DNA of 64,000 nt from Candidatus Omnitrophota bacterium (GTDB taxonomy: Bacteria; Omnitrophota; Gorgyraeia; Gorgyraeales; Gorgyraeaceae). Location: NCBI GenBank assembly GCA_043821705.1, contig JBDRCN010000001.1:74133-138132 (forward strand). Direction: 5' to 3'. Each line of letters opens with the position of its first letter. Positions within the stretch are counted from its first letter, which is position 1. The notes beneath the pieces are model-generated. The model saw nothing but the letters and a program-made list of their open reading frames with translations. It had not been told where the DNA came from and did no database searches. Made by a program: the position numbers and the translations under genes. Positions 2,411-46,118 of this stretch are shown piece by piece.

Positions 2411-3480
2411 AAGCAAAACTCGTACTTGAAGATGGCAGAGTGTTCACTGGGTCCTCCTTTGGCGCTAGCGGCGAAAGAACAGGCGAAGTAGTGTTCAATA
2501 CCAGTATGAGCGGCTATCAAGAGATCCTTACAGACCCTTCGTATAAAGGTCAGATAGTCACAATGACCTATCCTCTCATAGGAAATTACGGTATAAATGA
2601 AGAAGATAATGAATCAAGAGGTATCTTTTTGGAGGGCTTTGTAGTAAAAGAAGCTAGCAGGATAGTAAGTAACTTTAGAGCTACTAAATCTCTGCAAGAT
2701 TACCTGAAAGAGAATAATATTATAGGCATAGAAGGCATTGATACAAGAGCTTTAACTCGTCATATAAGACTTCAAGGTGCGATGAAAGCAGTTTTATCGA
2801 CTATAGACCTGGATGATAAGAGTCTCGTCAAAAAAGCAAAAGCTTCTCCAGGCTTGATAGGTATTGACCTAGCAAAAGAAGTCATGTATGAGAAAACTTT
2901 CCAGTGGAATAAGACTGGCAAGAGGACAGTCGTTGCAATAGATGCAGGTATAAAATTCAATATCCTGAGAAACCTAGAGAAAAGGGACTGTAAAGTCATA
3001 GTAGTACCTGGCAATTCTTCCCCAGAAGAAATACTTTCTTATAAACCAGATGGGATAATGGTATCTAATGGGCCAGGTGACCCAGAAGCAGTTACATGTG
3101 TAATAGAAACCCTTAAAAAACTCATAGGAAAGCTGCCTATATTCGGGATATGCCTGGGCCACCAGATGCTAGGCCTTGCTCTGGGAGGAAAGACATATAA
3201 ATTAAAGTTCGGTCATCATGGAGGCAATCACCCAGTAAAGGATCTGAGTACAGGGAGGATCTCTATTACAGCTCAGAACCATGGGTTTTGTGTTGATATA
3301 GATTCGCTTAATAAGGATGACATCGAGATAACTCATATAAATCTGAATGATAATACACTTGAGGGCATGAGACATAAGAAATATCCAGTATTCAGTGTAC
3401 AGTTCCATCCTGAACATGGCCCAGGCCCTCACGACGCAGAGTATTTATTTGATAAGTTCATTGAAACCATGAGTAAGTAG
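2407..3480 (+). CDS. carA: carbamoyl-phosphate synthase small (glutaminase) subunit
   Basis: Conserved CarA N-terminus (LVLEDG...[29 protein letters not shown]). The class-I GATase triad region is present (GICLGHQ ... HPE). Length is 357 aa. Confidence 0.95.
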
Positions 3481-3484
3481 TATT

Positions 3485-3741
3485 AGCTCTATGAGCAGCT
3501 CACTATCTCATATGAAAATTTTCCTAATTCATCTGACAGCCTGGCAGGCCTTCGAAAAATCGTTCAGCCCAGTGTTAGTAATGCGTGGGTGTGGGGCTTC
3601 ACTCCACTTTATTTTGACAGGCAAACTAAATTGTAGTTTGTAGATCACAAAGTGCGCAAAATAAAAAGGTTTTTCTCCTGCCTACCAGGCTGTCAGTAAG
3701 ACAGAAATTTTCAAATTCGCTAGTAAGCTGCTCATAGAGCT
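3485..3741. repeat. Long imperfect inverted repeat (element C) in the carA-carB spacer
   Basis: Three nested arm pairs were found. AGCTCTATGAGCAGCT at 3485-3500 pairs with AGCTGCTCATAGAGCT at 3726-3741. CTGACAGCCTGGCAGG at 3533-3548 pairs with CCTGCCTACCAGGCTGTCAG at 3677-3696. GAAAATTTTC also occurs on both arms. The loop is ~130 nt and contains TGGGTGTGGGG, which is also found in element D. Confidence 0.7.
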
Positions 3742-3776
3742 GATTTAGCTACAAAGTTTAGCTATGCTGATGAAAA

Positions 3777-3962
3777 AGCTAGACTAGGGCTCTTTAGCGC
3801 ATTAGGAACATAGCGGCATTCAGTGGTATTTAAGCATGAAGTGTTCAAGGCTTTAGAGCGAGATCGAGCCTAACTAAAGGCGAAAGCTGTATTCGGAGAG
3901 CGAGCTCTAAACCGTAGAACACGGCGCGGTGTTCCAGCGCTAAAGAGTTCTAGTCTAGCTTT
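3777..3962 (+). repeat. Dispersed palindromic repeat family A, copy 1 (~185 bp)
   Basis: About 85% identical to 29577-29762 (same orientation) and to 47748-47924 (reverse complement). The terminal stem CTTTAGCGC/GCGCTAAAG and the internal hairpin GAACACGGCGCGGTGTTC are conserved. Confidence 0.85.
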
Positions 3963-3994
3963 AGCAACTGTTATAGTAACGATAGAAAGTTGAT

Positions 3995-6900
3995 ATGCCG
4001 AAACGAACGGACATTAAAAAAATATTAATAATAGGATCAGGGCCTATAATAATAGGTCAAGCTTGTGAATTTGACTATTCAGGGACGCAGGCCTGTAAAG
4101 CTCTAAGAGAAGAAGGATACGAGGTCGTATTAATAAATTCTAATCCAGCGACTATCATGACTGACCCTGAGACAGCTCCATATACCTATATAGAACCTAT
4201 TACTCCAAGTGTATTAGAAAAAGTGATCGCTAAAGAAAGGCCAGATGCGCTTCTGCCGACCTTAGGAGGCCAGACTGGGCTTAACACTGCGATGAAAGTT
4301 GTAGAGAACGGCGTGCTGGAAAAATATAATGTAGAAATGATAGGGGCGAATTATGATGTTATTAAAAAAGCTGAAGATAGGAATGATTTTAAGCAAGCTA
4401 TGTTAAAGATAGGCCTGGATCTTCCAAAAAGCGGGCTTGCATATAATATGGATGAAGCTAGAAAAGTCATGGAAGAGATAGGCCTGCCTCTGATCATAAG
4501 GCCTAGTTTTACATTGGGTGGCACTGGAGGAGGTTTTGCCAGTACAAAAGAAGAATTTGAAAAAATAGCTAATCTGGGATTAAAGAGTTCGATGATAAAC
4601 GAGATATTAATAGAAGAAAGTATATTTGGCTGGAAAGAATATGAGTTAGAGGTAATGAGAGATAAAAAAGATAATGTAGTGATAGTCTGCTCTATTGAAA
4701 ACCTAGATCCAATGGGCATACATACAGGGGATTCTATTACAGTAGCGCCTCAGCAGACATTGACTGATAGAGAGTATCAAAATATGAGAGATGCTTCTAT
4801 CGCGATAATAAGAGAGATAGGGGTTGAGACAGGCGGGTCGAACATACAATTTGCAGTAGATCCTAAAAATGGCAGGATGGTCGTAATAGAGATGAACCCG
4901 AGAGTATCTCGTTCTTCAGCTCTAGCAAGTAAAGCAACTGGTTTCCCTATAGCGAAGTTTGCTGCAAAGTTGGCTGTAGGATATACGCTTGATGAGATAC
5001 AAAACGACATTACAAAAGAGACGCCAGCTAGTTTTGAACCTACTATAGATTATTGTGTGGTAAAAGTGCCTAGATTCACATTTGAAAAATTTCCCGAAGC
5101 AAAAGACATATTAGGTATACAGATGAAATCAGTTGGCGAGACAATGGCCATAGGAAGGACCTTTAAGGAATCACTACAAAAAGCTCTTAGGGGCCTAGAG
5201 ATAGGGCATGTGGGATTAGATAATAAGCTTAATTATTTAGATATATCTGATAAAAAGATAAGACATAGATTAGCTGAGGCGAATGCATCAAGGATCTTGT
5301 ATATAAAATATGCGCTCCAAAAAGGTTATTCACTCGAAGATATCTGTAAACTTACAGGAATTGACCCATGGTTCATAGCAAATATAGAAGAACTAGTAGA
5401 GATAGAAAAACATCTAGAGACTGAGCTTAAAAAATCAGGAAGCTTCACAAAAGACACCTTAAAACTTGCAAAAGAGAATGGGTTTAGTGATATACAGCTA
5501 GCTAAACTAGCAGACATTACAGAAGAAGAGGTCAGAATATTAAGAAAAAAAGAAAACATCATCCCTACGTTTAAACTTGTTGATACATGCGCTGCAGAAT
5601 TTGAAGCATACACGCCTTATTATTACTCAACATATGAATCAGAGTGTGAAGCAAGGCCTTCGGATAAAAAGAAGATAATGATATTAGGTGGCGGCCCAAA
5701 CAGGATAGGACAGGGTATAGAATTTGATTATTGCTGTTGCCACGCATCCTTTGCCTTAAAAGAATTAGGATATGAGACTATCATGGTGAACTCCAATCCT
5801 GAGACAGTATCAACTGACTATGATACATCTGACAAATTATATTTTGAGCCATTGACATTTGAAGATGTGATGAATATCATTGATAAAGAAAGACCAGACG
5901 GTGTGATAGTCCAATTTGGCGGGCAGACGCCACTCAACCTAGCGCATAGACTTGAAAACGCAGGCGCGCCTATCATAGGTACAAGTGTAAAATCAATAGA
6001 TGATGCTGAGAATAGAGATAAGTTTTCGAGTATTCTTAATAAATTAAAGATCGATCAGCCTCCAAATGGCTCTACTAGTGACAGAGAGGAAGCTATAAAG
6101 ATCGCTTCTAGGATCGGATATCCTGTTTTAGTGAGACCTAGTTATGTGTTAGGCGGAAGGGCGATGAAGATAGTCTATGATGAGGAGACTTTAAAGGAAT
6201 TTATTGTTGAAGCTCAAGGCGTATCTGAAGGAGGGCCTATTCTAATAGATAAATTCCTAGAAGATGCGATCGAAGTAGATGTGGACGCGATATCAGATGG
6301 GAAAGAGACTATAATAGGCGGGATAATGGAGCACATAGAAGAAGCAGGAGTGCATTCAGGGGATTCAGCGTGTGTTCTTCCACCGTATACGCTGGGGAAA
6401 GACCTGATAGAGAGGATAAAAAAACACACAATAGAGCTCTCAAAAGAATTAAAGGTCATTGGTTTGATGAATATACAGTTTGCAATAAAGGGGGATACTA
6501 TCTATGTGTTAGAAGTAAATCCCAGGGCATCCCGTACAGTTCCTTTTGTAAGTAAGGCTATAGGAGTGCCTCTTGCAAAAATAGCTTCAAAGGTGATGAC
6601 AGGTTTAAGTCTCAAAGAATTAGGCATTACAAAACAAAAAGAAGTAGAGCATATTTCTGTAAAAGAATCAGTCCTTCCTTTCACTAGATTTTCAGGTGTA
6701 GACATCCTTCTAGGCCCTGAGATGAAATCCACTGGAGAAGTGATGGGGATAGACAGTACATTTGGAAAAGCGTTTTATAAATCACAGCTTGCAGCAGGAG
6801 TAGCGCTTCCATTAAAAGGAAAGGTCTTTATAAGCGTTAAAAACGAGGATAAGCGTAATATCATATTTATTGCCAAGAAACTTTTTGATATGGGATTTGA

Positions 6901-7234
6901 GATAATAGCGACATCTGGGACAGCCAAGTCATTGAGGTCTAATAATATAAAGGTAAAAGAAGTCGGTAAGATCTCGGAAGGTAACAGAGATATATTAGAC
7001 TTGATAGAGAAGAATGAACTGAAACTGATCATCAACACCCCTACTGGGAAAAGAAGTCAATCTGACATGAAGCCCATAAGGAATCTTGCGGTCATGCATG
7101 GAGTTCCGTGTATAACTACAATGCAAGGCGTACAAGCAGCTGTCAATGGAATAGAGAGCGTGATAAAGGATGATTTTGGAGTAAAGAGTATCCAAGAATA
7201 TTTAAGTGAGGCCACGACTTACGGAATGAAATGA
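3995..7234 (+). CDS. carB: carbamoyl-phosphate synthase large subunit
   Basis: 1079 aa with duplicated ATP-grasp halves and a C-terminal MGS-like domain. The N-terminus [28 protein letters not shown] is canonical. Confidence 0.97.
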
Positions 7235-7258
7235 ACGTAAGTCGTTTGACCGAACTTA

Positions 7259-7368
7259 CCCCACACCCAGCATTTATTATGTAGGTGTTCTAAGGGGTAT
7301 TTATAATAACTAAAACACCATGTTCAAGTATTAACAGCTCTTAAAGCTGATAAATGCTGGGTGTGGGG
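7259..7368. repeat. 110-bp element with perfect 18-bp terminal inverted repeats (element D)
   Basis: CCCCACACCCAGCATTTA at 7259-7276 is the exact reverse complement of TAAATGCTGGGTGTGGGG at 7351-7368. A 10-bp stem-loop (ACGACTTACG...CGTAAGTCGT, 7214-7245) that spans the carB stop codon lies immediately upstream. Confidence 0.8.
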
Positions 7369-7451
7369 TTTAATTCGCGCCTGCAAAGGTGCTAACTATA
7401 GGAGATTGATTTATGTCGCATTTTATGCTCCATAAACCAAGCGCTTATTAA

Positions 7452-8834
7452 ATGTGTGGAATATTCGGTATAATAAATCATAAAGATGCAGCTAGGCTTA
7501 CGTATCTAGGGCTCTACGCGCTTCAGCATAGAGGAGAAGAGAGCGCAGGCATTGTTGTGCAGCGAGGGAAAAAAGTATACCACCATAAAGGCATGGGCCT
7601 GGTAGGAGATGTGTTTACTGAAAGAGATATAAAGGCCTTAAAGGGTGATGTGGCAGTAGGCCATGTGAGATATTCTACTACTGGCTCATCAAGCACTAAG
7701 AACATCCAACCGTTTTTTGTAAGCCATAAAAAAGGATATATCGCGATCGCGCATAATGGGAACCTGGTCAATACATACCAGCTTAGAAATGAACTAGAAC
7801 ACAAAGGTTCTATTTTTTCAACCTCTATGGACTCAGAGATAATCGCGCATCTTTTAGCTCGTACAAAGACAAGTAGATTGGAGGAAAGTATCTCAGAAAG
7901 CTTATGTGAATTAGAAGGTGCTTATGCACTGATCATGATGATGGATAATCTATTGATAGGCGCAAGAGATCCATATGGCTGGAGGCCTCTTTGTATAGGG
8001 AAACTAAATAGTTCTTATGTATTAGCAAGTGAGACATGCGCTCTTGACCTCATACAAGCAAAATACATTAGAGATGTTGAACCAGGAGAAGTTGTAATAA
8101 TAGATAAAGATAAGCTAAGGTCTATAAATATCTCCACCAGAGCATTTTTCCCGACAGCAGAACGCGCGAGTTGTATCTTTGAATATATATATTTTGCCAG
8201 GCCTGATAGCAATATCTTTGGGCATAACGTGTACCAGGCTCGTAAGAATCTAGGCAGAGAACTTGCTCGAGAATATCCAGTAGACGCTGATTTTGTCATG
8301 CCAATACCTGACTCAGGGAATTATGCTGCCCTAGGTTATGCAGAGGAAAGCAAGATCCCTTATGAAGCTGGTATGATACGTAATCATTATATAGGAAGGA
8401 CTTTTATTCAGCCCTCACAGTTTATAAGGGATTTTAGAGTGAAGGTAAAATTAAATCCTATAAGGGATATATTAAAAGATAAAAAAATAGTTGTCATAGA
8501 AGATTCTATTGTGCGTGGCACTACTAGCAGGATACGCATGAAGACTATAAGAGAGGCAGGGGCTAAAGAAGTGCATATGAGGGTCAGCTGCCCACCACTT
8601 AGATTCCCATGTTTTTATGGGATAGATTTTCCGACGAAGAAAGAGCTTATTGCTTCAAAACATTCTATTAAAGAAATACAAAAGTTCATTGGAGCTGATT
8701 CTTTAGAGTATCTGTCGCTGGAAGGGATGCTCAGTGCAATGCCTCTTCCTAAAAAAAGTTTCTGTACAGCTTGTTTTAACGGTAAATATCCAACAAAACT
8801 CCCTAGGAAACTAGGAAAGAACATACTTGAATGA
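7452..8834 (+). CDS. purF: amidophosphoribosyltransferase (glutamine PRPP amidotransferase), 4Fe-4S type
   Basis: N-terminal MCGIFGI nucleophile, LQHRGEESAGI and HNGNL motifs. The PRTase motif VVIEDSIVRGTTS and the C-terminal cysteines (CPPLRFPC ... CTACFNG) are present. Confidence 0.95.
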   Translation: MCGIFGIINHKDAARLTYLGLYALQHRGEESAGIVVQRGKKVYHHKGMGLVGDVFTERDIKALKGDVAVGHVRYSTTGSSSTKNIQPFFVSHKKGYIAIAHNGNLVNTYQLRNELEHKGSIFSTSMDSEIIAHLLARTKTSRLEESISESLCELEGAYALIMMMDNLLIGARDPYGWRPLCIGKLNSSYVLASETCALDLIQAKYIRDVEPGEVVIIDKDKLRSINISTRAFFPTAERASCIFEYIYFARPDSNIFGHNVYQARKNLGRELAREYPVDADFVMPIPDSGNYAALGYAEESKIPYEAGMIRNHYIGRTFIQPSQFIRDFRVKVKLNPIRDILKDKKIVVIEDSIVRGTTSRIRMKTIREAGAKEVHMRVSCPPLRFPCFYGIDFPTKKELIASKHSIKEIQKFIGADSLEYLSLEGMLSAMPLPKKSFCTACFNGKYPTKLPRKLGKNILE

Positions 8835-11135: not shown

Positions 11136-11153
11136 AAATAGAGAGAGCTTATC

Positions 11154-12518: not shown

Positions 12519-12550
12519 TATATGGCTGATCAAAAATCGGAGAATTAATC

Positions 12551-13747: not shown

Positions 13748-13773
13748 TAAAGAATAATTTTTCTTGACTCGTT

Positions 13774-13802
13774 TCCCATAAGCGTGGATAATATAAATAT
13801 AT
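13774..13802 (+). promoter_or_regulatory. sigma-70-like promoter (TTGACT-N17-GATAAT)
   Basis: Consensus-like -35 and -10 boxes with a 17-nt spacer. It lies upstream of a hairpin+T-run (13851-13886) and of gdhA. Confidence 0.5.
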
Positions 13803-13850
13803 AAATCTGATACAAAGGCGTATCAATATGAGGCGATGTATTAGGACAGA

Positions 13851-13886
13851 GGCGTTCTTAGTAAGCTAAGGACGCTTTTTTATTTT
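13851..13886 (+). terminator. hairpin + T-run (attenuator or terminator) in the gdhA leader
   Basis: GGCGTTCTTAG ... CTAAGGACGC stem followed by TTTTTTATTTT. Confidence 0.5.
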
Positions 13887-13919
13887 AACCTAAGGTGCAC
13901 ATACTTTGTGCAATAATAG

Positions 13920-15281
<1,362 letters not shown>

Positions 15282-15316
15282 AGAAAAAGTACATTATGTA
15301 TTGTGTTTATAAGATA

Positions 15317-15357
15317 AAAGAGGGAGGCGTTTTTAAGGTGCGTCTCCCTCTTTTATT
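15317..15357 (+). terminator. Rho-independent terminator after gdhA
   Basis: AAGAGGGAGGCG ... CGTCTCCCTCTT stem followed by TTTATT. Confidence 0.6.
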
Positions 15358-15425
15358 ATGCATTTACTAAGCATATTATTTATGCTATAATTGCATGGAT
15401 TTTGTGAAAAAAGAGGAGGGGATTT

Positions 15426-18272
15426 GTGCCAAAGATAAAGGATATCAATAAAGTTTTGATAATAGGCTCTGGCCCGATCGTTATAGGCCAGGCATGTGAA
15501 TTTGATTATTCAGGTACTCAGGCTTGTAAAGCACTAAGGGCAGCTGGCTATGAAATAGTACTTGTCAATTCAAACCCAGCGACTATTATGACTGATCCAG
15601 GGATGGCAGATGTGACATACATCGAACCTCTTAATATAGAAAGACTTACCTCTATTATTGAAAAAGAAAGACCCGATGCGCTTTTACCTAATCTAGGCGG
15701 GCAGACAGGGCTTAATTTATCCAGTGAACTTGCTAAAAAAGGCGTACTTGAAAAATATAATGTAAGAATAATAGGCGTACAAGCTGATGCTATTGAAAGA
15801 GGAGAAGATCGCTTAGCATTTAAAGAAACAATGAAGTCTTTGGATATTCCTATGCCGACGAGTGAATTGGCATACTCTGTAGAAGAAGCTAAAGAGATAG
15901 CAAAGAAAATAGGATATCCTATTATTATCAGGCCTGCATATACTATGGGAGGAACAGGCGGAGGAGCAGTATATAATGAGGAAGAATTAGAAGTAATTGC
16001 CGCGAGAGGCATTTCAGTAAGTCTTATTGGACAGATATTGGTCGAACAATCTGTTCTAGGATGGGAAGAATTAGAGCTTGAGGTAGTTAGAGACAGGGAT
16101 TCTAATAAGATCACGGTCTGTTTTATTGAAAATATCGATCCTATGGGCGTACACACAGGAGATAGTTTTTGTTCAGCGCCTATGCTTACAGTAGACCCTA
16201 AAATACAGAAAAAACTCCAGGATTATTCTTACAAGATAGTGGATGCAATAGGTGTTATTGGCGGGACGAATGTCCAATTTGCGCATAATCCTGACAATCA
16301 TGATATTGTTGTCATCGAGATCAACCCTAGGACATCCCGTTCTTCAGCTCTTGCATCAAAAGCCACAGGATTTCCTATTGCTTATGTCTCTTCTAGGCTT
16401 GCAGGAGGAGATCTATTAAGAGATATACCTTACTGGAGGGATGGGACCTTAGATAAATATACTCCTTCAGGAGAATATGTTGTTATTAAATTTTCAAGAT
16501 GGGCATTTGAAAAATTCCGCAATATAGAGGATAAGCTTGGTACTCAGATGAGAGCAGTGGGTGAAGTTATGAGCATAGGCAAGACCTATAAAGAAGCGTT
16601 TCAAAAGGCAATAAGGAGCCTTGAGATAACTCGCTATGGGCTGGGTTTTGCCAAGAATTTCAATCAACTATCATTAGAAGAACTTAAAAAACTTTTAGCG
16701 CATCCTTCTTCAGAGAGACAGTTTATTATGTACGAAGCACTTCGTAAAGGCATGAGCGTGGATGAGCTGTATGATAAGACCAGGATACATAGATATTTCA
16801 TTACCCAGATGAAGGAACTAGTAGAGCTCGAAGAGAAGATCTTGAAACATAAATGGAAGGATCTTCCAGATGAACTCTTTATAAGGGCAAAGGAAGATGG
16901 GTTTTCAGATAAATATATTGCACAACTATTAAAGGCGCCTGAAGAAGAAGTCAGATCAAAACGCCTTAAGCTCGGGAAAGAAGAAGCATGGGAAGCTGTT
17001 CCAGTGAGTGGAGCAGATGCAGCGTATTACTACTCTACTTATAATGCGCCTGATAGTGTAAAGGTGAGCTCTAATCCACAAAAGATCATGATATTAGGCG
17101 GTGGGCCAAATAGGATAGGACAGGGTATAGAGTTTGATTACTGTTGCTGTCATGCAGCATACGCATTGAGAGACATGCAGTATGAAAGCATAATGATAAA
17201 TTGCAATCCTGAGACAGTATCTACTGATTACGATACATCAAATAAACTTTATTTTGAACCTTTGACAGTAGAGGATGTCTTGAGTATCTATAATAAAGAA
17301 AAACCGTTAGGAGCGATCGTCCAATTCGGGGGCCAGACTCCTTTAAATCTAGCAAAAGAATTAGAAAAAGCAGGCGTAAAGATACTTGGTACTTCCACTG
17401 AAAGCATAGATCTGGCTGAAGATAGAGAGAGATTTAGCAAAGAGATGAAAAAGCTTGGGATACTCCAGCCAGAAAGTGATATGGCAAGTACTGTAGAACA
17501 AGCGCTGAAGATAGCAAGCAAGATAGGCTACCCTCTTATCGTAAGGCCTAGTTATGTATTAGGTGGCAGGGCAATGGAGATAGTCTATGATGAAAATATG
17601 CTCCTTGATTATGTAAAAAAGGCAGTGGATGTTTCTCCGGATCGCCCGATCTTGATAGATAAGTTCTTAGAGGATGCATTAGAGGCTGAAGCTGATGCTA
17701 TTTCAGACGGAGAAGAGGTTTTTATACCTTCGGTGATGCAACATATAGAAGAAGCAGGAGTCCACTCAGGGGATTCAGCATGTGTGATCCCACCTACTTC
17801 CATACCTAAGAAGCATCTGGATACGATCAATGATTATACTGAAAAGATCGCAAAGGCATTAAAGGTAGTAGGCTTAATGAATATACAATATGCTATTGCA
17901 AATGATCTAGTATATGTGCTCGAAGCAAATCCCAGAGCATCCCGTACTGTCCCTATTGTTTCAAAGGTATGCGGTTTATCAATGGCAAGGATCGCAACAG
18001 AACTCATGCTCGGTAAAAAACTAAAAGATATGAAGTTAAAGAAGAAGAAATATTCCCATTACGGCGTGAAAGAATCAGTATTTCCTTTTTATATGTTCCA
18101 AGAAGTAGACCCTCTTTTAGGGCCTGAGATGCGTTCAACAGGTGAAGTCTTAGGCATAGCTGATTCTATGGGCCTAGCATATTTTAAAGCTCAAGAAGCT
18201 GCAGGAGCAAAGCTTCCTACGAGCGGTACAGTTTTGGTAACAGTTGCTGCAAGGATAAGAAAAAAACAATAG
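15426..18272 (+). CDS. second carbamoyl-phosphate synthase large-subunit paralog (no adjacent small subunit); reading frame breaks near the 3' end
   Basis: 948 aa with a full CarB architecture ([26 protein letters not shown] ... both ATP-grasp halves). It is ~55% identical to carB at 3995. The ORF ends in RKKQ* at an A7 run, and the CarB C-terminal MGS-like domain continues in another frame (see next feature). Confidence 0.85.
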   Translation: MPKIKDINKVLIIGSGPIVIGQACEFDYSGTQACKALRAAGYEIVLVNSNPATIMTDPGMADVTYIEPLNIERLTSIIEKERPDALLPNLGGQTGLNLSSELAKKGVLEKYNVRIIGVQADAIERGEDRLAFKETMKSLDIPMPTSELAYSVEEAKEIAKKIGYPIIIRPAYTMGGTGGGAVYNEEELEVIAARGISVSLIGQILVEQSVLGWEELELEVVRDRDSNKITVCFIENIDPMGVHTGDSFCSAPMLTVDPKIQKKLQDYSYKIVDAIGVIGGTNVQFAHNPDNHDIVVIEINPRTSRSSALASKATGFPIAYVSSRLAGGDLLRDIPYWRDGTLDKYTPSGEYVVIKFSRWAFEKFRNIEDKLGTQMRAVGEVMSIGKTYKEAFQKAIRSLEITRYGLGFAKNFNQLSLEELKKLLAHPSSERQFIMYEALRKGMSVDELYDKTRIHRYFITQMKELVELEEKILKHKWKDLPDELFIRAKEDGFSDKYIAQLLKAPEEEVRSKRLKLGKEEAWEAVPVSGADAAYYYSTYNAPDSVKVSSNPQKIMILGGGPNRIGQGIEFDYCCCHAAYALRDMQYESIMINCNPETVSTDYDTSNKLYFEPLTVEDVLSIYNKEKPLGAIVQFGGQTPLNLAKELEKAGVKILGTSTESIDLAEDRERFSKEMKKLGILQPESDMASTVEQALKIASKIGYPLIVRPSYVLGGRAMEIVYDENMLLDYVKKAVDVSPDRPILIDKFLEDALEAEADAISDGEEVFIPSVMQHIEEAGVHSGDSACVIPPTSIPKKHLDTINDYTEKIAKALKVVGLMNIQYAIANDLVYVLEANPRASRTVPIVSKVCGLSMARIATELMLGKKLKDMKLKKKKYSHYGVKESVFPFYMFQEVDPLLGPEMRSTGEVLGIADSMGLAYFKAQEAAGAKLPTSGTVLVTVAARIRKKQ

Positions 18273-18628
18273 TCGAAGCAGTTAAAAGACTAAAGGAACT
18301 TGGTTTTAAGATTGTAGCTACATCTGGCACAAAAGCTTTTTTAGATAAGAATAAGATCGTATGTGAAGAGATAAAAAAGATGCACGAAGGCAGGCCGAAT
18401 ATAGTAGATTCAATAAATAATAAAGAGATACAGCTTATAATAAATACGCCAGTTGGAAAAACTGCAGCACATGATGATTCTTATATTAGAAAAAGTGCGA
18501 TAAAGTATAAATTGCCTTATATCACCACTCCAGCAGCAGCATTAGCAGCAGCAGAAGGTATAGCTTCATATATTAAAAATAAAGGGGATGTTAAGTCTCT
18601 ACAGAAGTATCACAGCGAGATAACATAA
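18251..18628 (+). CDS. C-terminal MGS-like domain of the carB paralog, in -1 frame relative to 15426..18272
   Basis: The phase-2 translation KDKKKTIVEAVKRLKELGFKIVATSGT...GKTAAHDDSYIRKSAIKYKLPYITT aligns with carB1 residues [27 protein letters not shown]...PCITT. The six-frame track only reports the ORF from the internal Met at 18380. Confidence 0.75.
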   Translation, partial: KDKKKTIVEAVKRLKELGFKIVATSGTKAFLDKNKIVCEEIKKMHEGRPNIVDSINNKEIQLIINTPVGKTAAHDDSYIRKSAIKYKLPYITTPAAALAAAEGIASYIKNKGDVKSLQKYHSEIT

Positions 18629-20163
18629 TGTTTAAAAGAGTTGTCACACAGAAAAAAGCATTTGATAATGAAAAGTATCTGAAAGAACAGACCCAAGAGA
18701 TCCTATCTAGAGTCAAAAAATTCGACAATAAACTTTATCTAGAGTTTGGCGGAAAGATATGCTTTGATTATCATGCTGCAAGAGTCCTTCCAGGCTATGA
18801 TCCAAATGTTAAGATGAGGCTCTTGGAGAAATTAAAAAAACATGCTGAGATCGTAGTAAGTGTTTATGCTAAGGACATAGAACAAGGCAGGGTGAGAGGC
18901 GATTATGGTATAACATATGACCTTGCGACCCTTAAACTCATCGATGACCTGAAAGCATGGGGCCTTGACGTCACATCAGTGGTATTGACAAGATTCAACA
19001 ATGAACCGTCAGTAGTAAAATTTAAGAGGCGCCTTGAAAAATTAGGCCTAAAGGTATATAAACATGTGAAGATAGAAGGTTATCCTCACGACGTAGAAAA
19101 AATAGTTTCTTCGAGCGGGTATGGGAAGAATGATTATATTGAGACAAAGAAGCCTATAGTAGTAGTAACTGCTCCTGGCCCGGGAAGCGGAAAACTTTCA
19201 ACTTGTCTTTCACAACTCTATCATGACCATAAAAAAGGCATAAATTCAGGCTATGCTAAGTTTGAGACATTCCCTATCTGGAATCTTACACTTAACCATC
19301 CAGTGAATATTGCATATGAAGCTGCGACAGTAGATCTAGCTGATTTTAATCTTGTCGATCCATTTCACCTGGAAAAGTATAAAAAAGAATCTATAAATTA
19401 TAATCGTGATGTAGAGGCATTCCCTATTCTAAAAAACATAATCCATAAAATAACAGATTCAAAAGATAGTTATTATAATTCTCCGACTGACATGGGGGTC
19501 AATAGGGCTGGTTTTGGGATAGTAAAAGATAAATTGGCCAAGGAGGCTGCTAGACAAGAGATCATTCGCAGGTATTTTAGGCATAACCTGGAATTTGCCA
19601 TAGGAAGCGGCACAAAAGAAGAATTGGAAAGGGCCCAGTCCATTATGGATAAGACTGGAGTAAAAGCAGAAGATAGGTCGACAGTAGAGCCTGCGAGAAA
19701 AGCAGCTAAGGAGTGCGAGAAAAAAGGAAAAGGCAATAAGGGTTATTTCTGCGGAGCTAGTATAGAGCTAGATGATGGCACGATCATTACCGGGAAGAAC
19801 TCACCTTTAATGCATGCAGCATCCAGCGCTATAATAAATGCAATAAAACATCTTGCTGGCATAGATGATAAAGTGCATATCCTTAAACCAGAGATAATGA
19901 GCGACCTTTCAAAATTAAAAAAAGATATCTTGAGCATGACCAGCGAGAGCTTAAATCTCGACGAGATCTTGGTCGCTCTCTCTATAAGTGCGCATTCAGA
20001 TTCAAATGCAAAAAAGGCTTTGTCAAAACTTAAAGATCTAAGTGGTTGTGAACTTCATAGTACGCATTTACCCACCCCAGGTGATGAGGCAGGCTTAAGA
20101 AAATTAGGGATAAATTTTACTACTGATGCAATACCTTCATCCAGTTTGTTTTTTAACGCCTAG
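18628..20163 (+). CDS. DUF1846 / UPF0371-family protein (function unknown)
   Basis: 511 aa. The N-terminal region (LYLEFGGKI.FDYHAARVLPGYDP) resembles the UPF0371 family as I recall it. Its start codon overlaps the stop of the carB-paralog C-terminal fragment (ATAATG). Confidence 0.45.
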   Translation: MFKRVVTQKKAFDNEKYLKEQTQEILSRVKKFDNKLYLEFGGKICFDYHAARVLPGYDPNVKMRLLEKLKKHAEIVVSVYAKDIEQGRVRGDYGITYDLATLKLIDDLKAWGLDVTSVVLTRFNNEPSVVKFKRRLEKLGLKVYKHVKIEGYPHDVEKIVSSSGYGKNDYIETKKPIVVVTAPGPGSGKLSTCLSQLYHDHKKGINSGYAKFETFPIWNLTLNHPVNIAYEAATVDLADFNLVDPFHLEKYKKESINYNRDVEAFPILKNIIHKITDSKDSYYNSPTDMGVNRAGFGIVKDKLAKEAARQEIIRRYFRHNLEFAIGSGTKEELERAQSIMDKTGVKAEDRSTVEPARKAAKECEKKGKGNKGYFCGASIELDDGTIITGKNSPLMHAASSAIINAIKHLAGIDDKVHILKPEIMSDLSKLKKDILSMTSESLNLDEILVALSISAHSDSNAKKALSKLKDLSGCELHSTHLPTPGDEAGLRKLGINFTTDAIPSSSLFFNA

Positions 20164-20183
20164 ATTATAGAAAGGAAATTATT

Positions 20184-21632
20184 ATGAGTGGAGTATTTGG
20201 GGCAGTATCTAAAAAATCTTGTTCAGAGGACCTTTTTTACGGCATTGATTATCAGACACATCTTGGTACACAGTATGGAGGCGTAGCGGTACTCCATGAT
20301 AAAAGGATATATAGGCAGATCCATGATATATCGCAATCCCAGTTTAAATCAAAGTTCTATGATGATTATAAAAAATTAAATGGAAAATTTGGCATAGGCG
20401 TGATAAGTGATTCAGATGCGCAACCCATGTTTTTAAACACAAAGTTTGGTTCTTTTGCAGTGTGTATGACAGGGCTTATCGAGAACACAAAAGAATTGAC
20501 AAAAGAACTGCATAGGGGAGGCCACTCTTTTAGTGAAACAGAAGATGGTTCTATGAATTCTGTAGAGGTCATCGCTAAGCTTATAAGTACGGGGAGTGAT
20601 ATTGTAAGTGGGATAGAAGAGGTTTTCAGCAAGATCGTAGGCTCATGTTCTTTATTGGTCCTTTGTAAGGACGGCATATATGCTGCAAGAGATAGATTTG
20701 GTTATACTCCTTTGGTGATAGGTAAAAAAGGAGATGATTATGCTGTAGCTTCAGAGACATGCGCTTTTCCTAACACTGGCTTCAAGATACATAAATATAT
20801 ATTGCCAGGGGAGATCGTCTTAATAAATGAAAAAGGCATTAAACAGGTAAGAGGAGCGAAAGGCACAAACCAGATCTGTTCTTTTCTTTGGATATACACA
20901 GGATTCCCAGCTTCTACTTATGAGGATATAAATGTAGAGGTCGTAAGAGAGAGATGCGGAGCATCATTGGCAAAGAGGGATAAAGATATAGAAGTGGACG
21001 TAGTATCAGGAGTCCCTGATTCAGGGGTTGCTCATGCGATAGGTTATGCAATGGAGTCTAAAAAACCTTACAGGAGGCCTTTAGTAAAATATACACCAGG
21101 TTATGGAAGAAGTTATACTCCCCCAGTACAGGAGATAAGAGATCATATAGCTAAGATGAAGCTCATTCCTATAAAAGATGTTATAAACGGAAATAGAATA
21201 GTAGTCTGTGAGGATTCTATTGTAAGAGGTACGCAGCTAAAAAACTTTACTGTACAAAAACTTTATGAGAATGGCGCGAAAGAGATACATGTGAGACCAG
21301 CTTGTCCACCACTTATGTATCCATGTAAGTTCTGTCTATCTACAAGAAGCATAGATGAGCTCGCAGCTCGTAAAGCAATAAAAGATATTGAAGGAAAAGA
21401 TATAGAAGATGTCTCTAAATATGTGGATCCAACAACTGAAGAGTATAAAAAGATGGTTGAGTGGATAAGAAAGGACATCGGGGTCACAACGCTACGCTAT
21501 CAGATACTAGATGATATGATCACTGCTATAGGCCTGCCGCGCGAAAAACTTTGCACTTACTGTTGGAACGGCGAATGCCTGGCAAAAGGAAACCTAAAGG
21601 AAGAGAAGATAGCAGAGACTTCTACTCTTTAA
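20184..21632 (+). CDS. PurF-like amidophosphoribosyltransferase paralog with degenerate glutaminase site
   Basis: Collinear with purF. The PRTase motifs (VVCEDSIVRGTQ, VPDSG) and the Fe-S cysteines (CPPLMYPC, CTYCWNGEC) are conserved. The N-terminal nucleophile is Ser (MSGVFG). The purF HRG Arg is replaced by HLG, and the HNGNL Asn by MTGLI. Confidence 0.8.
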   Translation: MSGVFGAVSKKSCSEDLFYGIDYQTHLGTQYGGVAVLHDKRIYRQIHDISQSQFKSKFYDDYKKLNGKFGIGVISDSDAQPMFLNTKFGSFAVCMTGLIENTKELTKELHRGGHSFSETEDGSMNSVEVIAKLISTGSDIVSGIEEVFSKIVGSCSLLVLCKDGIYAARDRFGYTPLVIGKKGDDYAVASETCAFPNTGFKIHKYILPGEIVLINEKGIKQVRGAKGTNQICSFLWIYTGFPASTYEDINVEVVRERCGASLAKRDKDIEVDVVSGVPDSGVAHAIGYAMESKKPYRRPLVKYTPGYGRSYTPPVQEIRDHIAKMKLIPIKDVINGNRIVVCEDSIVRGTQLKNFTVQKLYENGAKEIHVRPACPPLMYPCKFCLSTRSIDELAARKAIKDIEGKDIEDVSKYVDPTTEEYKKMVEWIRKDIGVTTLRYQILDDMITAIGLPREKLCTYCWNGECLAKGNLKEEKIAETSTL

Positions 21633-21643
21633 AACGATCAGCG

Positions 21644-21691
21644 AATAGGGACGGTTTTTAGTTTTACCTAAAGAACCGTCCCTATTTTTTT
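21644..21691 (+). terminator. Rho-independent terminator after the purF-like gene
   Basis: 13-bp stem AATAGGGACGGTT ... AACCGTCCCTATT followed by T7. Confidence 0.7.
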
Positions 21692-21713
21692 GGAAATCTG
21701 ATATAATATACAT

Positions 21714-25123: not shown

Positions 25124-25776
25124 AAGACCTTTCTGTTTCACTTGGCGCTGCTTTATTTGGGATAGCAGATGTAAAGACAGTGAAAGAGGAATTTCATTTT
25201 TCTAGTGAAATTTTAGAGGATTTAGATTATGCTATATCCATAGGCCTTAGATTGAGTGATGTGATATTAGATGACATAGTAGACCATCCCACAAAGATAT
25301 ATTTCCATCACTATAGGCAGGCGAATGCACAGCTTGACAGGATCGCATTAGGGGTGACTAATTTCATACAAGGATCCGGGCATAAGGCATTACCTATACC
25401 AGCGTCACAGATCTTGGATTGGGAAAGACAGGAGGGGCACCTTTCTCATAAAAAGATAGGGGAACTAGCAGGACTTGGATTTATAGGAAGGAACAATCTA
25501 TTAGTAAATCCAGAGCTTGGTTCGCGGTTTAGACTAGTCACTATATTGACAGACGCGCCTTTAGAAACAGATAAAGCGCTGGGCATAGATTGTGAGACAT
25601 GCAAAGATTGTATAAAGACGTGCCCAGCAAACGCGATAAAAGAAAACAAGAAAGATTTTGACCACATTGCTTGTTACGAAAAACTAAAAGAATTTAGAGA
25701 TAAGGGCTATGTCGGGCAATTTATATGTGGTATATGTGTAAAAGCTTGCAGGGGGAATAAATGGAAAAGAAGATAG
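25090..25776 (+). CDS. QueG-like iron-sulfur protein (DUF1730 + 4Fe-4S dicluster; short form)
   Basis: QueG-type motif [24 protein letters not shown] plus [12 protein letters not shown] and CGICVKAC. It is only 228 aa and lacks the C-terminal extension of canonical QueG. It overlaps the mnmG 3' end by 34 nt. Confidence 0.55.
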
Positions 25777-46096: not shown

Positions 46097-46118
46097 TTTT
46101 GTTCTTTATCAGTAATAC

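What the first reader, a model, noticed from the sequence alone, without database searches (positions are those of the whole stretch)
15426..21632. Paralogous carB - DUF1846 - PurF-like trio next to gdhA, with both amidotransferases lacking glutaminase capacity
A canonical carA-carB and a canonical purF are present in the same window. A second set follows: a full-length CarB paralog without any small subunit, a DUF1846/UPF0371 protein, and a PurF homologue. In this PurF homologue all three glutaminase catalytic residues are substituted (Cys1 to Ser, the Arg of HRG to Leu, the Asn of HNGN to Thr), while the PRTase motifs and the 4Fe-4S cysteines are conserved. The three genes are tightly spaced (gaps 0-20 nt). 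They sit directly downstream of NADP-glutamate dehydrogenase and upstream of a HI0933 flavoprotein, and a strong terminator follows them. This looks like an ammonia-dependent (glutamine-independent) ATP-grasp/PRPP-transferase module of unknown product. Ser can act as the nucleophile in Ntn-hydrolases, so the N-domain might instead hydrolyse a different amide.
Basis: partly seen in the sequence, partly recalled or inferred. Interest (0 to 1): 0.7.

Follow-up and report, generated by a model that had tools for sequence, protein, structure and literature searches.

The report
Ammonia-fed nucleotide synthesis operon, glutaminase-less
In this Omnitrophota genome one operon encodes three nucleotide-synthesis enzymes that have no working glutamine-splitting part, so the cell can probably build DNA/RNA precursors straight from ammonia; one of the three is already proven elsewhere, the other two are untested paralogs.

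Summary
The trio is real. It is a single transcription unit in a Candidatus Omnitrophota MAG: promoter-like site, carB2, DUF1846, purF2, strong terminator.

- carB2 is not an intact ORF here. A 1-nt deletion near 18250 splits it into 948 aa plus 126 codons in another frame. About 70 orthologs are intact.
- DUF1846 is no longer of unknown function. Its S. pneumoniae ortholog, PyrJ, was shown in 2024 to be an ammonia-only CTP synthase.

PurF2 belongs to an old, widespread Cys-less PurF clade (at least 595 matches among GTDB species genomes). Its glutamine site is degenerate, while its PRPP site, Fe-S cysteines and PurF fold are kept. Its neighbours elsewhere are pyrJ, carB, purM, purF and GATase-less guaA-like genes.

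CarB2 is a distinct, highly conserved CPS large-subunit clade. It almost never has its own carA.

Best reading (about 0.5): these are parallel ammonia-using isozymes for carbamoyl phosphate, CTP and phosphoribosylamine, not a pathway to one unknown product.

The Ser-nucleophile idea is disfavoured, because orthologs carry Gly or Thr at that position. CarB2's independence from CarA remains uncertain. Ammonia-dependent Cys-less PurF was already hypothesised in 2011 but never tested. The conserved clustering with PyrJ and CarB2 appears to be new.

The parts
13935..15281 (+). gdhA (glutamate dehydrogenase). It is a neighbour, not part of the operon.
   Evidence: Pfam ELFV_dehydrog_N plus ELFV_dehydrog. 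Its own terminator follows. Upstream lie NfnAB-like genes and isocitrate dehydrogenase.
15313..15362 (+). Intrinsic terminator of gdhA.
   Evidence: Hairpin of -28.0 kcal/mol, z = -7.3, followed by UUUUAUU.
15363..15391 (+). Sigma-70-like promoter candidate for the operon (TTTACT, 17 nt spacer, TATAAT, with TG extension).
   Evidence: Consensus scan, 10 of 12 matches. This is a consensus match only; no more such sites were found than in shuffled sequence.
15413..15419 (+). Ribosome-binding site GAGGAGG upstream of the carB2 GTG start.
   Evidence: Read directly from the sequence.
15426..18272 (+). carB2, first reading frame: 948 aa, covering the carboxyphosphate, oligomerisation and carbamoyl-phosphate domains and the start of the allosteric domain.
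   Evidence: Pfam CPSase_L_D1, D2 (each twice) and D3. NCBIfam NF003671 1406 bits against a cutoff of 599. 87% identical to the intact 1067-aa ortholog in L001.
18249..18254 (+). Site of a 1-nt deletion (frameshift) in carB2.
   Evidence: DNA alignment with L001 places the gap at GCTG-CAAGG. tblastn shows residues 1-948 in one frame and 916-1066 in another. About 70 orthologs at 80-88% identity are all 1066-1067 aa.
18251..18628 (+). carB2 remainder in the shifted frame: 125 codons plus the stop, encoding the rest of the MGS-like allosteric domain. The stop overlaps the pyrJ start (TAATG).
   Evidence: Frame-2 translation KDKKKTIVEAVKRLKELGFKIVATSGT... has no stop codons. Pfam MGS hit on the 82-aa ORF at 18380-18628.
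18260..18272 (+). A_AAA_AAA heptamer in phase with frame 0, followed by CAA TAG. It is a possible -1 slippage site that would restore the reading frame.
   Evidence: Read directly from the sequence. Any function is inference only; the A-run encodes the ancestral KKK.
18628..20163 (+). pyrJ (DUF1846/UPF0371), predicted ammonia-dependent CTP synthase.
   Evidence: PF08903 and PF20921, both full length. NF010184 725.5 bits against a cutoff of 631. 49% identity over 483 aligned residues to S. pneumoniae PyrJ, PDB 7F00, E = 4e-148. The enzyme activity was shown for the pneumococcal protein.
20170..20178 (+). Ribosome-binding site GAAAGGAAA of purF2.
   Evidence: Read directly from the sequence.
20184..21632 (+). 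purF2, a Cys-less PurF paralog: degenerate Ntn glutaminase domain, intact type I PRTase domain and Fe-S cysteines.
   Evidence: phmmer against 1AO0, E = 3e-57. TIGR01134 230.7 bits, below the cutoff of 350. AlphaFold pTM 0.78. Foldseek best hit PurF 1AO0, TM 0.76/0.80. Family conservation.
21639..21695 (+). Intrinsic terminator of the operon.
   Evidence: Hairpin of -25.2 kcal/mol, z = -5.3, followed by U7.
2407..8834 (+). Canonical glutamine-dependent set in the same window: carA, carB1 and purF1.
   Evidence: Pfam and NCBIfam hits. PurF1 has MCG, HRG, the RYSTTG loop and HNGN.

Best explanation
carB2-pyrJ-purF2 is one operon. It encodes three separate nucleotide-biosynthesis enzymes. Each corresponds to a step normally done by a glutamine amidotransferase, and each lacks a working glutaminase of its own.

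- PyrJ makes CTP from UTP, ATP and NH3. This activity is shown for its pneumococcal ortholog.
- PurF2 is proposed to make phosphoribosylamine from PRPP and free NH3 at its intact PRTase site. Its N-terminal domain would be kept as a structural or channel scaffold, not as a hydrolase.
- CarB2 is a pyrimidine-pathway carbamoyl-phosphate synthetase large subunit. It is proposed to work on free NH3, as the isolated E. coli large subunit can.

The products (CTP, PRA, carbamoyl phosphate) feed the ordinary purine and pyrimidine pathways, in parallel with the canonical carAB and purF in the same window.

The likely benefit applies to an energy-limited anaerobe in ammonium-rich habitats: amide nitrogen is obtained without spending the glutamine-synthetase ATP.

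What is shown: gene identities, operon structure, the family-wide residue pattern, and conserved neighbourhoods. What is inferred: NH3 use by PurF2 and CarB2, and the physiological rationale.
For: Operon structure:
- A terminator follows gdhA, then a promoter-like site and RBS, then overlapping or 20-nt gene junctions, then a terminator after purF2.

PyrJ:
- Both domains are full length and the protein scores above the NCBIfam cutoff. It is 49% identical to the characterised pneumococcal PyrJ.
- The preprint shows NH3-only UTP-to-CTP conversion and synthetic lethality with pyrG.

PurF2, residues and fold:
- Among 119 homologs at 67-100% identity, Ser2 is invariant, Arg26 is Leu or Met, and the oxyanion Asn position varies. 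The glutamine loop is deleted.
- EDSIVRGTQ, GRSY.P..Q..RD...MK and four Cys are invariant.
- The PurF two-domain fold is retained.
- E. coli C1S/C1A PurF keeps NH3-dependent activity (PMC3261824).

PurF2, neighbourhoods in 84 loci from many phyla:
- pyrJ is immediately adjacent in 12 loci (binomial p about 3e-21 against chance), in at least five different orders and orientations.
- carB lies within two genes in 10 loci.
- purM is adjacent in 8 loci (TIGR00878 401 bits), and canonical purF is nearby in 7.
- A GATase-less guaA-C-like gene lies within 3 genes in 4 loci, plus 1 more at about 8 kb. No class-I GATase ORF occurs within 10 kb of any of these.
- Sources.
- L165 shows carA-carB1-carB2-pyrJ-purF2 contiguous.

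CarB2:
- It forms a separate clade: 65-87% identity within the clade against 52-54% to CarB1.
- carA is directly adjacent in 1 of 32 loci, against 31 of 59 for the CarB1 type (Fisher p = 6e-7).
- Catalytic and tunnel-gate residues E217, C232, A251, N283, N301 and A314 are kept (the gate is defined in PMC8674909).
- Clade-specific replacements of residues that are invariant in CarA-linked CarBs concentrate in the NH3-receiving half and the oligomerisation domain: 19/192 and 10/30, against 5/186 in the homologous second half (p = 0.005 and 1e-6).
- The isolated large subunit makes carbamoyl phosphate from NH3 (PMC6245113).
Against: - No biochemistry exists for PurF2 or for CarB2-type proteins.
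- In L166 the CarB2-type gene overlaps the stop of carA, inside a pyr operon that also holds a CarB1-type gene. CarB2 may therefore pair with CarA and use glutamine.
- In the window a carA lies 12 kb upstream and could serve both large subunits.
- In this genome carB2 is frameshifted. A close relative, L007, carries an in-frame internal deletion of about 150 aa. The gene may be dispensable or decaying in this lineage.
- The strong conservation of the PurF2 N-domain, including Ser2 in 72 of 78 orthologs, is not explained by a pure scaffold role.
- Most PurF2 loci (over half) show no nucleotide-pathway neighbour at all.
- The GATase-less guaA-like genes score below the NCBIfam guaA_Cterm cutoff. 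Split GMP synthases with a distant GATase subunit are also known.
- The PyrJ activity rests on a single preprint. An earlier paper called the same protein a hemin binder.
Confidence: 0.5

Rival explanations
1. CarB2 is simply a second, pyrimidine-dedicated CPS large subunit that shares the single CarA with CarB1. This resembles the arginine- and pyrimidine-specific CPSases of Bacillus and Lactobacillus, but with one small subunit. On this view it is glutamine-dependent, and only PyrJ (and perhaps PurF2) run on ammonia.
For: - L166 has pyrB-pyrC-carA-carB(CarB2 signature)-carB(CarB1 signature)-pyrK-pyrD-pyrF, with the CarB2-type start overlapping the carA stop.
- L165 has carA-carB1-carB2 in a row.
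- The inner ammonia-tunnel gate C232/A251/A314 is conserved in CarB2.
- Two differently regulated CPSases are known in Bacillus and Lactobacillus (reference list of PMC6245113).
Against: - carA is directly adjacent in only 1 of 32 CarB2-type loci, against 31 of 59 for the CarB1 type.
- Residues invariant in CarA-linked CarBs are replaced in blocks (248-273, 335-347, 527-541) within the half that receives NH3 from CarA.
- No organism with one carA serving two carB genes was found in the literature searches.
Confidence: 0.3
2. PurF2 is not a PRA-forming enzyme. It could be a regulatory or non-catalytic partner of canonical PurF, or a PRPP-dependent transferase that uses a nucleophile other than ammonia.
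For: - It often coexists with canonical purF, sometimes as purF-purM-purF2.
- It scores below the purF equivalog cutoff, 231 against 350 bits.
- The N-domain is highly conserved despite its dead glutaminase site.
- There is a 25-residue insertion near the C-terminus.
Against: - The PRPP-binding loop, flexible-loop residues and Fe-S ligands are invariant, which would be unexpected for a pseudoenzyme.
- Many loci have PurF2 with no purF nearby.
- Cross-phylum identity of 52-60% points to selection on a catalytic function.
- Cys-to-Ser PurF retains NH3 activity.
Confidence: 0.2
3. One reading: the N-terminal Ser of PurF2 is an Ntn nucleophile that hydrolyses some amide other than glutamine, to feed ammonia to the PRTase site (and perhaps to CarB2).
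For: - Ser2 is invariant in 119 of 119 close homologs and in 72 of 78 species-level orthologs.
- Ser at position 2 favours removal of Met1.
- H26, G28, T29 and D76 are conserved around the site.
Against: - Orthologs in Syntrophaceae/Smithella (54-57% identity, same FYGTDYHSHLGT signature) have Gly2. One Thermoplasmatota ortholog has Thr2.
- More distant Cys-less clades have Gly, Thr or Ala.
- The oxyanion-hole position is unconstrained: T 48, A 38, S 17, N 8, V 5.
- C1S mutants of PurF and AsnB lose amidotransferase activity (PMC3261824).
Confidence: 0.07
4. The three proteins act together as one pathway or complex (ATP-grasp, DUF1846 and PRPP transferase) that makes a single unknown metabolite.
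For: - The three genes are tightly coupled in one operon here and in close relatives.
Against: - PyrJ already has a complete, self-contained reaction.
- The three genes associate pairwise and in varying combinations, and each also sits in a classical pur or pyr operon or stands alone.
- CarB2 scores far above the carB equivalog cutoffs.
Confidence: 0.04
5. In this particular genome carB2 is a pseudogene: the frameshift is real and the gene is being lost, leaving a functional pyrJ-purF2 pair.
For: - A 1-nt deletion interrupts the ORF.
- The close relative L007 has a different lesion in the same gene.
- A canonical carAB is present.
Against: - There is no second lesion. The 126 downstream codons stay open and conserved.
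- About 70 orthologs are intact.
- MAG assemblies do contain single-base errors.
- An in-phase A_AAA_AAA heptamer followed by a stop lies directly downstream and could allow some -1 read-through.
Confidence: 0.3

Closest known systems
PyrJ (Spd_0310, DUF1846/UPF0371) of Streptococcus pneumoniae, an ammonia-dependent CTP synthase (bioRxiv 10.1101/2024.09.24.614635; structure 7F00)
   Same: The two-domain architecture is the same. The proteins are 49% identical over their full length, and the window protein scores above the NCBIfam equivalog cutoff.
   Different: Activity has not been tested for this ortholog. Here the gene is embedded in an operon with carB2 and purF2, a context not described for the pneumococcal gene. 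An earlier paper assigned the pneumococcal protein a hemin-binding role.
PurF' (Cys-less PurF paralogs of Crenarchaeota) and Mlab_0150 (Ser in place of Cys), described by Brown et al. 2011, Biol Direct (PMC3261824)
   Same: These are PurF homologs without the N-terminal Cys. They coexist with a canonical purF and cluster with purine genes. The authors also hypothesised an ammonia-dependent PRPP aminotransferase.
   Different: Whether PurF2 belongs to the same clade was not tested. PurF2 is mainly bacterial (Omnitrophota, Phycisphaerae, Elusimicrobia, Syntrophaceae), with some Thermoplasmatota. It is 52-87% conserved and is linked to pyrJ and carB as well as to pur genes.
Canonical PurF (glutamine PRPP amidotransferase; B. 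subtilis 1AO0, E. coli 1ECF)
   Same: The two-domain fold matches (TM 0.76-0.80). The PRPP loop, the flexible loop and the B. subtilis-type 4Fe-4S cysteines are kept.
   Different: Cys1 is Ser, Arg26 is Leu, and the oxyanion Asn is Thr. The glutamine-binding RYxTxG loop is shortened by 8 residues, and there is a 25-residue C-terminal insertion. Identity to PurF1 of the same genome is 32%. The protein scores below the TIGR01134 cutoff.
E. coli CarB alone, and CPS I of animals (ammonia-dependent CPSases)
   Same: The four-domain large-subunit architecture matches. The isolated E. coli large subunit makes carbamoyl phosphate from NH3 (PMC6245113). CPS I keeps a dead glutaminase-like domain and uses free NH3 (PMC4655335, listed; the CPS I point is from my own knowledge).
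   Different: CarB2 is a natural, separately encoded bacterial paralog that sits alongside a complete carAB. Its ammonia dependence is inferred, not shown. In one lineage it sits directly after carA.
Dual CPSases of Bacillus subtilis and Lactobacillus plantarum (arginine- and pyrimidine-specific)
   Same: There are two carB paralogs in one genome, one of them associated with pyrimidine genes.
   Different: Those systems have two complete small-plus-large subunit pairs. Here and in relatives there is one carA for two carB genes.

Membership tests
PurF, glutamine PRPP amidotransferase (EC 2.4.2.14, TIGR01134) | N-terminal Cys nucleophile after Met or propeptide removal | tested here: not met
   Ser2 aligns with Cys1 of 1AO0. 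No upstream in-frame Cys or alternative start exists. Ser is invariant in 119 of 119 close homologs.
PurF, glutamine PRPP amidotransferase (EC 2.4.2.14, TIGR01134) | Glutamine-site residues: Arg26, the Arg73/Tyr74 loop, and the Asn-Gly oxyanion hole | tested here: not met
   Arg26 is Leu or Met. The RYSTTG loop is shortened by 8 residues. The Asn position is T/A/S/N/V across the family.
PurF, glutamine PRPP amidotransferase (EC 2.4.2.14, TIGR01134) | Two-domain fold: Ntn domain plus type I PRTase domain | tested here: met
   AlphaFold model with pLDDT 77.8 and pTM 0.78. The top 17 Foldseek PDB hits are all PurF, TM 0.75-0.80; GlmS comes next at 0.42.
PurF, glutamine PRPP amidotransferase (EC 2.4.2.14, TIGR01134) | PRPP-binding motif and flexible-loop residues of the PRTase site | tested here: met
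   C342-E-D-S-I-V-R-G-T-Q351, R309, Q316, R319 and K326 are invariant in 33 family members and align with the B. subtilis motifs.
PurF, glutamine PRPP amidotransferase (EC 2.4.2.14, TIGR01134) | Score above the curated equivalog cutoff | tested here: not met
   230.7 bits against a cutoff of 350. PurF1 of the same window scores 552.9.
PurF, glutamine PRPP amidotransferase (EC 2.4.2.14, TIGR01134) | Forms phosphoribosylamine from PRPP | not testable with these tools
   Needs an enzyme assay or complementation.
PurF' (Cys-less PurF paralogs, Brown et al. 2011) | PurF homolog without the Cys nucleophile, coexisting with a canonical purF and near pur genes | tested here: met
   The window holds both purF1 and purF2. 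purF-purM-purF2 occurs in 6 loci; purM is adjacent in 8 and canonical purF within two genes in 7.
PurF' (Cys-less PurF paralogs, Brown et al. 2011) | Same phylogenetic clade as the crenarchaeal PurF' | not tested
The wider Cys-less superfamily has several clades.
PyrJ / DUF1846 / UPF0371 (ammonia-dependent CTP synthase) | Full-length DUF1846 N- and C-domains, and a score above the NF010184 cutoff | tested here: met
   PF08903 covers 2-332 of 333 and PF20921 covers 1-146 of 153. NF010184 725.5 bits against 631.
PyrJ / DUF1846 / UPF0371 (ammonia-dependent CTP synthase) | Orthology with the biochemically characterised member | tested here: met
   49% identity over 483 aligned residues to 7F00 (S. 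pneumoniae), E = 4e-148, end to end.
PyrJ / DUF1846 / UPF0371 (ammonia-dependent CTP synthase) | UTP-to-CTP amination with NH3 but not glutamine | not testable with these tools
   Shown only for Spd_0310.
CarB, carbamoyl-phosphate synthetase large subunit | Two ATP-grasp halves, an oligomerisation domain and an MGS-like allosteric domain, with a score above the equivalog cutoffs | tested here: met
   Pfam domains. NF003671 1406 bits against 599 and TIGR01369 1307 against 1027, for the 948-aa part alone. The MGS remainder lies in the shifted frame.
CarB, carbamoyl-phosphate synthetase large subunit | Uninterrupted reading frame | tested here: not met
   A 1-nt deletion near 18250. Orthologs are intact at 1066-1067 aa.
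CarB, carbamoyl-phosphate synthetase large subunit | Catalytic and ammonia-tunnel gate residues (E217, N283, N301; C232/A251/A314) | tested here: met
   All are invariant in 22 CarB2-type sequences. The gate residues are as given in PMC8674909.
CarB, carbamoyl-phosphate synthetase large subunit | Works with a CarA glutaminase subunit | tested here: inconclusive
   There is no adjacent carA here or in 31 of 32 CarB2-type loci. However, L166 has carA directly upstream, and a carA lies 12 kb upstream in the window.

The most novel reading that the evidence does not exclude
CarB2, PyrJ, PurF2 and a GATase-less GuaA-like protein together form a conserved 'glutamine-free' toolkit. It would let energy-limited anaerobes (Omnitrophota, Elusimicrobia, Phycisphaerae, syntrophs, some Thermoplasmatota) put ammonia directly into purines and pyrimidines. 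On this reading PurF2 would be the first natural ammonia-specific PRPP aminotransferase, and CarB2 the first natural stand-alone ammonia-dependent bacterial CPS large subunit.
Probability: 0.3. Interest if true: 0.75.

Novelty: new variant of a known kind. Interest (0 to 1): 0.58.

Why it matters
- Five steps of nucleotide synthesis are textbook glutamine-amidotransferase reactions. PyrJ (2024) showed that one of them has an unrelated ammonia-only alternative.
- This locus and its relatives link PyrJ physically to glutaminase-less paralogs of two or three further steps: PurF, CarB and a GuaA-like protein.
- That link gives a concrete, testable answer to the question left open in 2011 of what Cys-less PurF paralogs do.
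- It also suggests that many uncultivated anaerobes bypass glutamine, and the ATP cost of making it, when ammonium is abundant.
- There is a practical annotation consequence. At least 595 matches among GTDB species genomes, carrying the family's signature peptides, are currently labelled plain 'amidophosphoribosyltransferase'. Metabolic reconstructions therefore assume glutamine dependence.

Tried and rejected
- Riboswitch or leader upstream of carB2: the Rfam scan of the whole window found only three tRNAs.
- Looking up the window's own contig through PurF2 failed; no gene with that exact product is on record.
- Literature searches for ammonia-dependent PurF paralogs, orphan or duplicate carB, and Omnitrophota nitrogen metabolism returned nothing relevant beyond Brown et al. 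2011 and the PyrJ preprint. The primary ammonia-tunnel paper, PMC2748306, is not held.
- gdhA and the HI0933 flavoprotein as operon members: rejected. Strong terminators separate both, and neither is conserved next to the trio outside close relatives.
- Conserved programmed frameshift in carB2: rejected. Orthologs are in frame at this point. The slippery heptamer is noted only as a possible rescue.
- 'CarB2 cannot bind CarA': this was suggested first by the adjacency statistics and the asymmetric substitutions. It was then weakened by L166, where a CarB2-type gene overlaps carA, and is now kept only as a possibility.
- Ser2 as nucleophile: rejected as a family-wide mechanism.
- Neighbour analysis of CarB2-type genes in the metagenome loci found no recurrent partner.
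- Three metagenome loci (L093, L096, L098) gave no callable CarB ORF with my simple ORF caller and were left out of the tallies.

Full report
**Source and layout**

The window comes from a Candidatus Omnitrophota MAG: the PurF-like protein is 100% identical to an NCBI entry of that name. The region reads, all on the + strand:
- carA 2407-3480, carB1 3995-7234, purF1 7452-8834
- rubrerythrin and small ORFs
- an NfnAB-like pair 10296-12518
- isocitrate dehydrogenase 12551-13747
- gdhA 13935-15281
- CarB paralog from 15426, DUF1846 18628-20163, PurF paralog 20184-21632
- HI0933-type flavoprotein 21714-22949, mnmG, a QueG-like Fe-S protein, and guaA 25761-27302

**Checking the observation**

The residue claims for PurF2 hold.
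- Against B. subtilis PurF (1AO0, whose chain starts at the mature Cys1), Gly3 of PurF2 aligns with Gly2. So Ser2 takes the place of Cys1, HRG becomes HLG, and HNGN becomes MTGL.
- The window's own PurF1 shows the canonical residues in the same columns.
- The start codon is not in doubt. An in-frame TAA lies nine codons upstream, there is no alternative start codon between it and the ATG, and an RBS precedes the ATG.
A 25-residue insertion sits near the C-terminus.
- The PRPP motif, the flexible-loop residues and four cysteines matching the B. subtilis Fe-S ligands are invariant across 33 family members.
- An AlphaFold model (pLDDT 77.8, pTM 0.78) matches only PurF structures at TM 0.75-0.80. 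GlmS comes next at 0.42.

The CarB claim needs correcting.
- The ORF that starts at the GTG at 15426 stops at 18272 after 948 residues. The rest of the MGS-like allosteric domain continues in another frame up to 18628, where its TAA overlaps the ATG of DUF1846.
- Alignment with the intact 1067-aa ortholog of a relative (L001, 87% identical) places a single missing base at GCTG-CAAGG, about 18249-18254.
- About 70 ortholog clusters at 80-88% identity are all 1066-1067 aa. The downstream 126 codons here carry no further lesion. So this is a private event: an assembly error or a very recent mutation.
- An A_AAA_AAA heptamer in phase with the old frame, followed by CAA TAG, lies immediately downstream. 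It could allow some -1 read-through. This is noted only as a possibility, since the A-run simply encodes the ancestral KKK.

The three genes form their own transcription unit.
- gdhA ends with a -28 kcal/mol hairpin (z = -7.3) and a U-run.
- A TTTACT-17-TATAAT site with a TG extension and a GAGGAGG RBS precede carB2.
- A -25.2 kcal/mol hairpin (z = -5.3) with U7 follows purF2.
- Sources.
- gdhA and the flavoprotein are neighbours, not members. No riboswitch or leader was found.

**What DUF1846 is**

The protein has both DUF1846 domains at full length and scores above the NCBIfam cutoff. It is 49% identical, end to end, to the S. pneumoniae protein in PDB 7F00.

A 2022 paper called that protein a hemin binder. 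A 2024 preprint (10.1101/2024.09.24.614635) reached a different conclusion:
- The gene is synthetically lethal with pyrG.
- The defect is rescued by cytidine.
- The purified protein converts UTP to CTP with ammonia but not with glutamine.
- The authors renamed it PyrJ.

In C. difficile the DUF1846 gene is essential. So the middle gene of the trio has a defined, self-contained reaction.

**What PurF2 is**

It is not a local oddity.
- 119 close homologs (67-100% identity) all begin MSG.
- A scan of one genome per GTDB species found at least 595 matches. The best 80 (52-81% identity) come from Omnitrophota, Phycisphaerae/Planctomycetota-labelled MAGs, Elusimicrobia, Syntrophaceae/Smithella, Thermoplasmatota and others.
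- It is 32% identical to PurF1 of the same genome and scores below the purF equivalog cutoff, 231 against 350 bits. It is therefore an old paralog.

Position 2 is Ser in 72 of 78 of these orthologs. It is Gly in five Syntrophaceae/Smithella orthologs that keep the rest of the N-terminal signature, and Thr in one archaeal ortholog. More distant Cys-less relatives found by an exhaustive HMMER search start MGG, MTG or MAG. The oxyanion position is unconstrained. A Ser-based hydrolase is therefore unlikely to be the family's mechanism.

Neighbourhoods, assessed in 84 loci:
- pyrJ is the immediate neighbour in 12 loci, in several different orders and orientations: carB2-pyrJ-purF2; pyrJ-purF2-carB2; purF2-pyrJ; carB2-purF2-pyrJ; convergent; divergent.
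- carB lies within two genes in 10 loci, including two cases of carA-carB-purF2.
- A gene confirmed as purM (TIGR00878, 401 bits) is adjacent in 8 loci, mostly as purF-purM-purF2.
- A 310-332-aa GuaA C-terminal-like protein lies within three genes in 4 loci, with one more at about 8 kb. No class-I GATase ORF occurs within 10 kb of any of the five.
- Sources.
- For a single-copy gene, 12 adjacencies in 84 loci is far beyond chance, although the loci are not phylogenetically independent.

Brown et al. (2011) had already described Cys-less PurF' paralogs in Crenarchaeota and a Ser variant in Methanocorpusculum. They noted that E. coli C1S/C1A PurF loses glutamine use but keeps ammonia use, and they proposed an ammonia-dependent PRPP aminotransferase. 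The link to PyrJ now adds independent support for that idea.

**What CarB2 is**

It scores well above the carB equivalog cutoffs. It belongs to a clade that is 65-87% identical within itself and only 52-54% identical to CarB1-type proteins. Close members occur in Omnitrophota, Syntrophorhabdaceae, Syntrophus and Sedimentisphaerales.

Adjacency to carA differs sharply between the two types.
- Across 32 CarB2-type loci, carA is directly adjacent once.
- Across 59 CarB1-type loci it is adjacent 31 times (Fisher p = 6e-7).
- Sources.

I compared 22 CarB2-type sequences with 32 CarA-linked CarB1-type sequences.
- Catalytic residues and the C232/A251/A314 tunnel gate are identical in both groups (gate residues per PMC8674909).
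- Residues invariant in the CarA-linked group but replaced in CarB2 are concentrated in the carboxyphosphate half (19 of 192) and the oligomerisation domain (10 of 30). The homologous second half has only 5 of 186 (p = 0.005 and 1e-6).
- The replacements fall in blocks at 248-273, 335-347 and 527-541.
- From memory, Tyr261 and Arg265 line the outer ammonia tunnel in E. coli. I could not verify this in the held literature.
- The isolated E. coli large subunit makes carbamoyl phosphate from ammonia (PMC6245113).

Two loci complicate this picture.
- In an Omnitrophota relative the order is carA-carB1-carB2-pyrJ-purF2 (L165).
- In a Syntrophorhabdaceae-like contig the CarB2-type gene overlaps the stop of carA. 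It sits inside pyrB-pyrC-carA-carB-carB-pyrK-pyrD-pyrF, followed by a CarB1-type gene (L166).

These loci show that CarB2 is a pyrimidine-pathway CPS large subunit and that 'one carA, two carB' is a recurring design. They leave open whether CarB2 runs on free ammonia or shares CarA.

**Synthesis**

The trio is best read as a set of parallel, glutaminase-less isozymes for three amidotransferase steps: carbamoyl phosphate, CTP and phosphoribosylamine. It is not a pathway to one new compound. The set sits next to genes that supply NADPH, 2-oxoglutarate and glutamate from ammonia (NfnAB-like, ICDH, GdhA).

My confidence by part:
- PyrJ identity: high.
- NH3 use by PurF2: moderate.
- NH3 use by CarB2: lower.

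The physiological rationale, saving glutamine-synthetase ATP in ammonium-rich anoxic habitats, is inference.

**Novelty**

- PyrJ is known from a 2024 preprint.
- Cys-less PurF, and the ammonia hypothesis for it, date from 2011 but remain untested.
- I found no description of the CarB2 clade, or of the conserved clustering of these glutaminase-less paralogs, in the searchable literature.
- I rate this a new variant of a known kind, of moderate to good interest.

Noticed in passing
window 18249-18272: The carB2 frameshift is followed within 10 nt by an A_AAA_AAA heptamer in phase with the old frame, then CAA TAG. A -1 slip there would restore a full-length protein that differs in only about 4 residues.
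   Followed up: partly
L007 1642-4398: A close relative (84% identity) carries a different lesion in carB2: an in-frame internal deletion of residues about 628-811 in the second ATP-grasp half. It could be an assembly collapse, or a sign that carB2 is dispensable in this lineage.
   Followed up: partly
L166 3423-17247: A Syntrophorhabdaceae-like pyrimidine operon contains one carA followed by two full-length carB paralogs: a CarB2-type gene, then a 1114-aa CarB1-type gene. They lie between pyrB-pyrC and pyrK-pyrD-pyrF.
   Followed up: partly
L002 14667-15635; L018 8983-9948; L021 13386-14354; L049 4418-5416; L033 18344-19276: GuaA C-terminal-like proteins (310-332 aa; ATP-pyrophosphatase plus GMP_synt_C) lack a GATase domain and have no GATase ORF within 10 kb. 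They lie next to or near purF2 or carB2. They score just below the guaA_Cterm cutoff (294-303 against 338.75 bits).
   Followed up: partly
L008, L011, L015, L031, L036, L041 (Phycisphaerae/Sedimentisphaerales-type MAGs): These loci share a conserved purF-purM-purF2 arrangement, in which canonical and Cys-less PurF flank AIR synthase.
   Followed up: yes
window 10296-15281: An NfnAB-like pair (DHODB Fe-S/NAD-binding protein plus GltD-like protein), isocitrate dehydrogenase and GdhA lie in a row. Together they look like an NADPH, 2-oxoglutarate and glutamate supply block. A similar NfnAB-like pair and gdhA lie upstream of purF2 in L002.
   Followed up: no
window 42000-46100: A low-GC island (0.30-0.31, against about 0.38 elsewhere) holds a 713-aa glycosyltransferase-2/radical-SAM fusion (42229-44370) and a 584-aa ORF with no Pfam hit (44342-46096). 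A tRNA-Ser at 46170 follows.
   Followed up: no
window 25090-25776: A 228-aa Fe-S protein with weak similarity to QueG and reductive dehalogenases overlaps the end of mnmG and precedes guaA. The mnmG, Fe-S protein, guaA order is conserved in L001 and L165.
   Followed up: no
L093, L096, L098: tblastn found CarB2-type matches at 68% identity on these metagenome contigs, but a simple table-11 ORF caller produced no long CarB ORF. The cause could be frameshifts, a different genetic code, or poor assembly.
   Followed up: no
(literature): The same pneumococcal DUF1846 protein was published as a hemin-binding iron-homeostasis factor in 2022 and as an ammonia-dependent CTP synthase in a 2024 preprint. 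The two assignments have not been reconciled.
   Followed up: no
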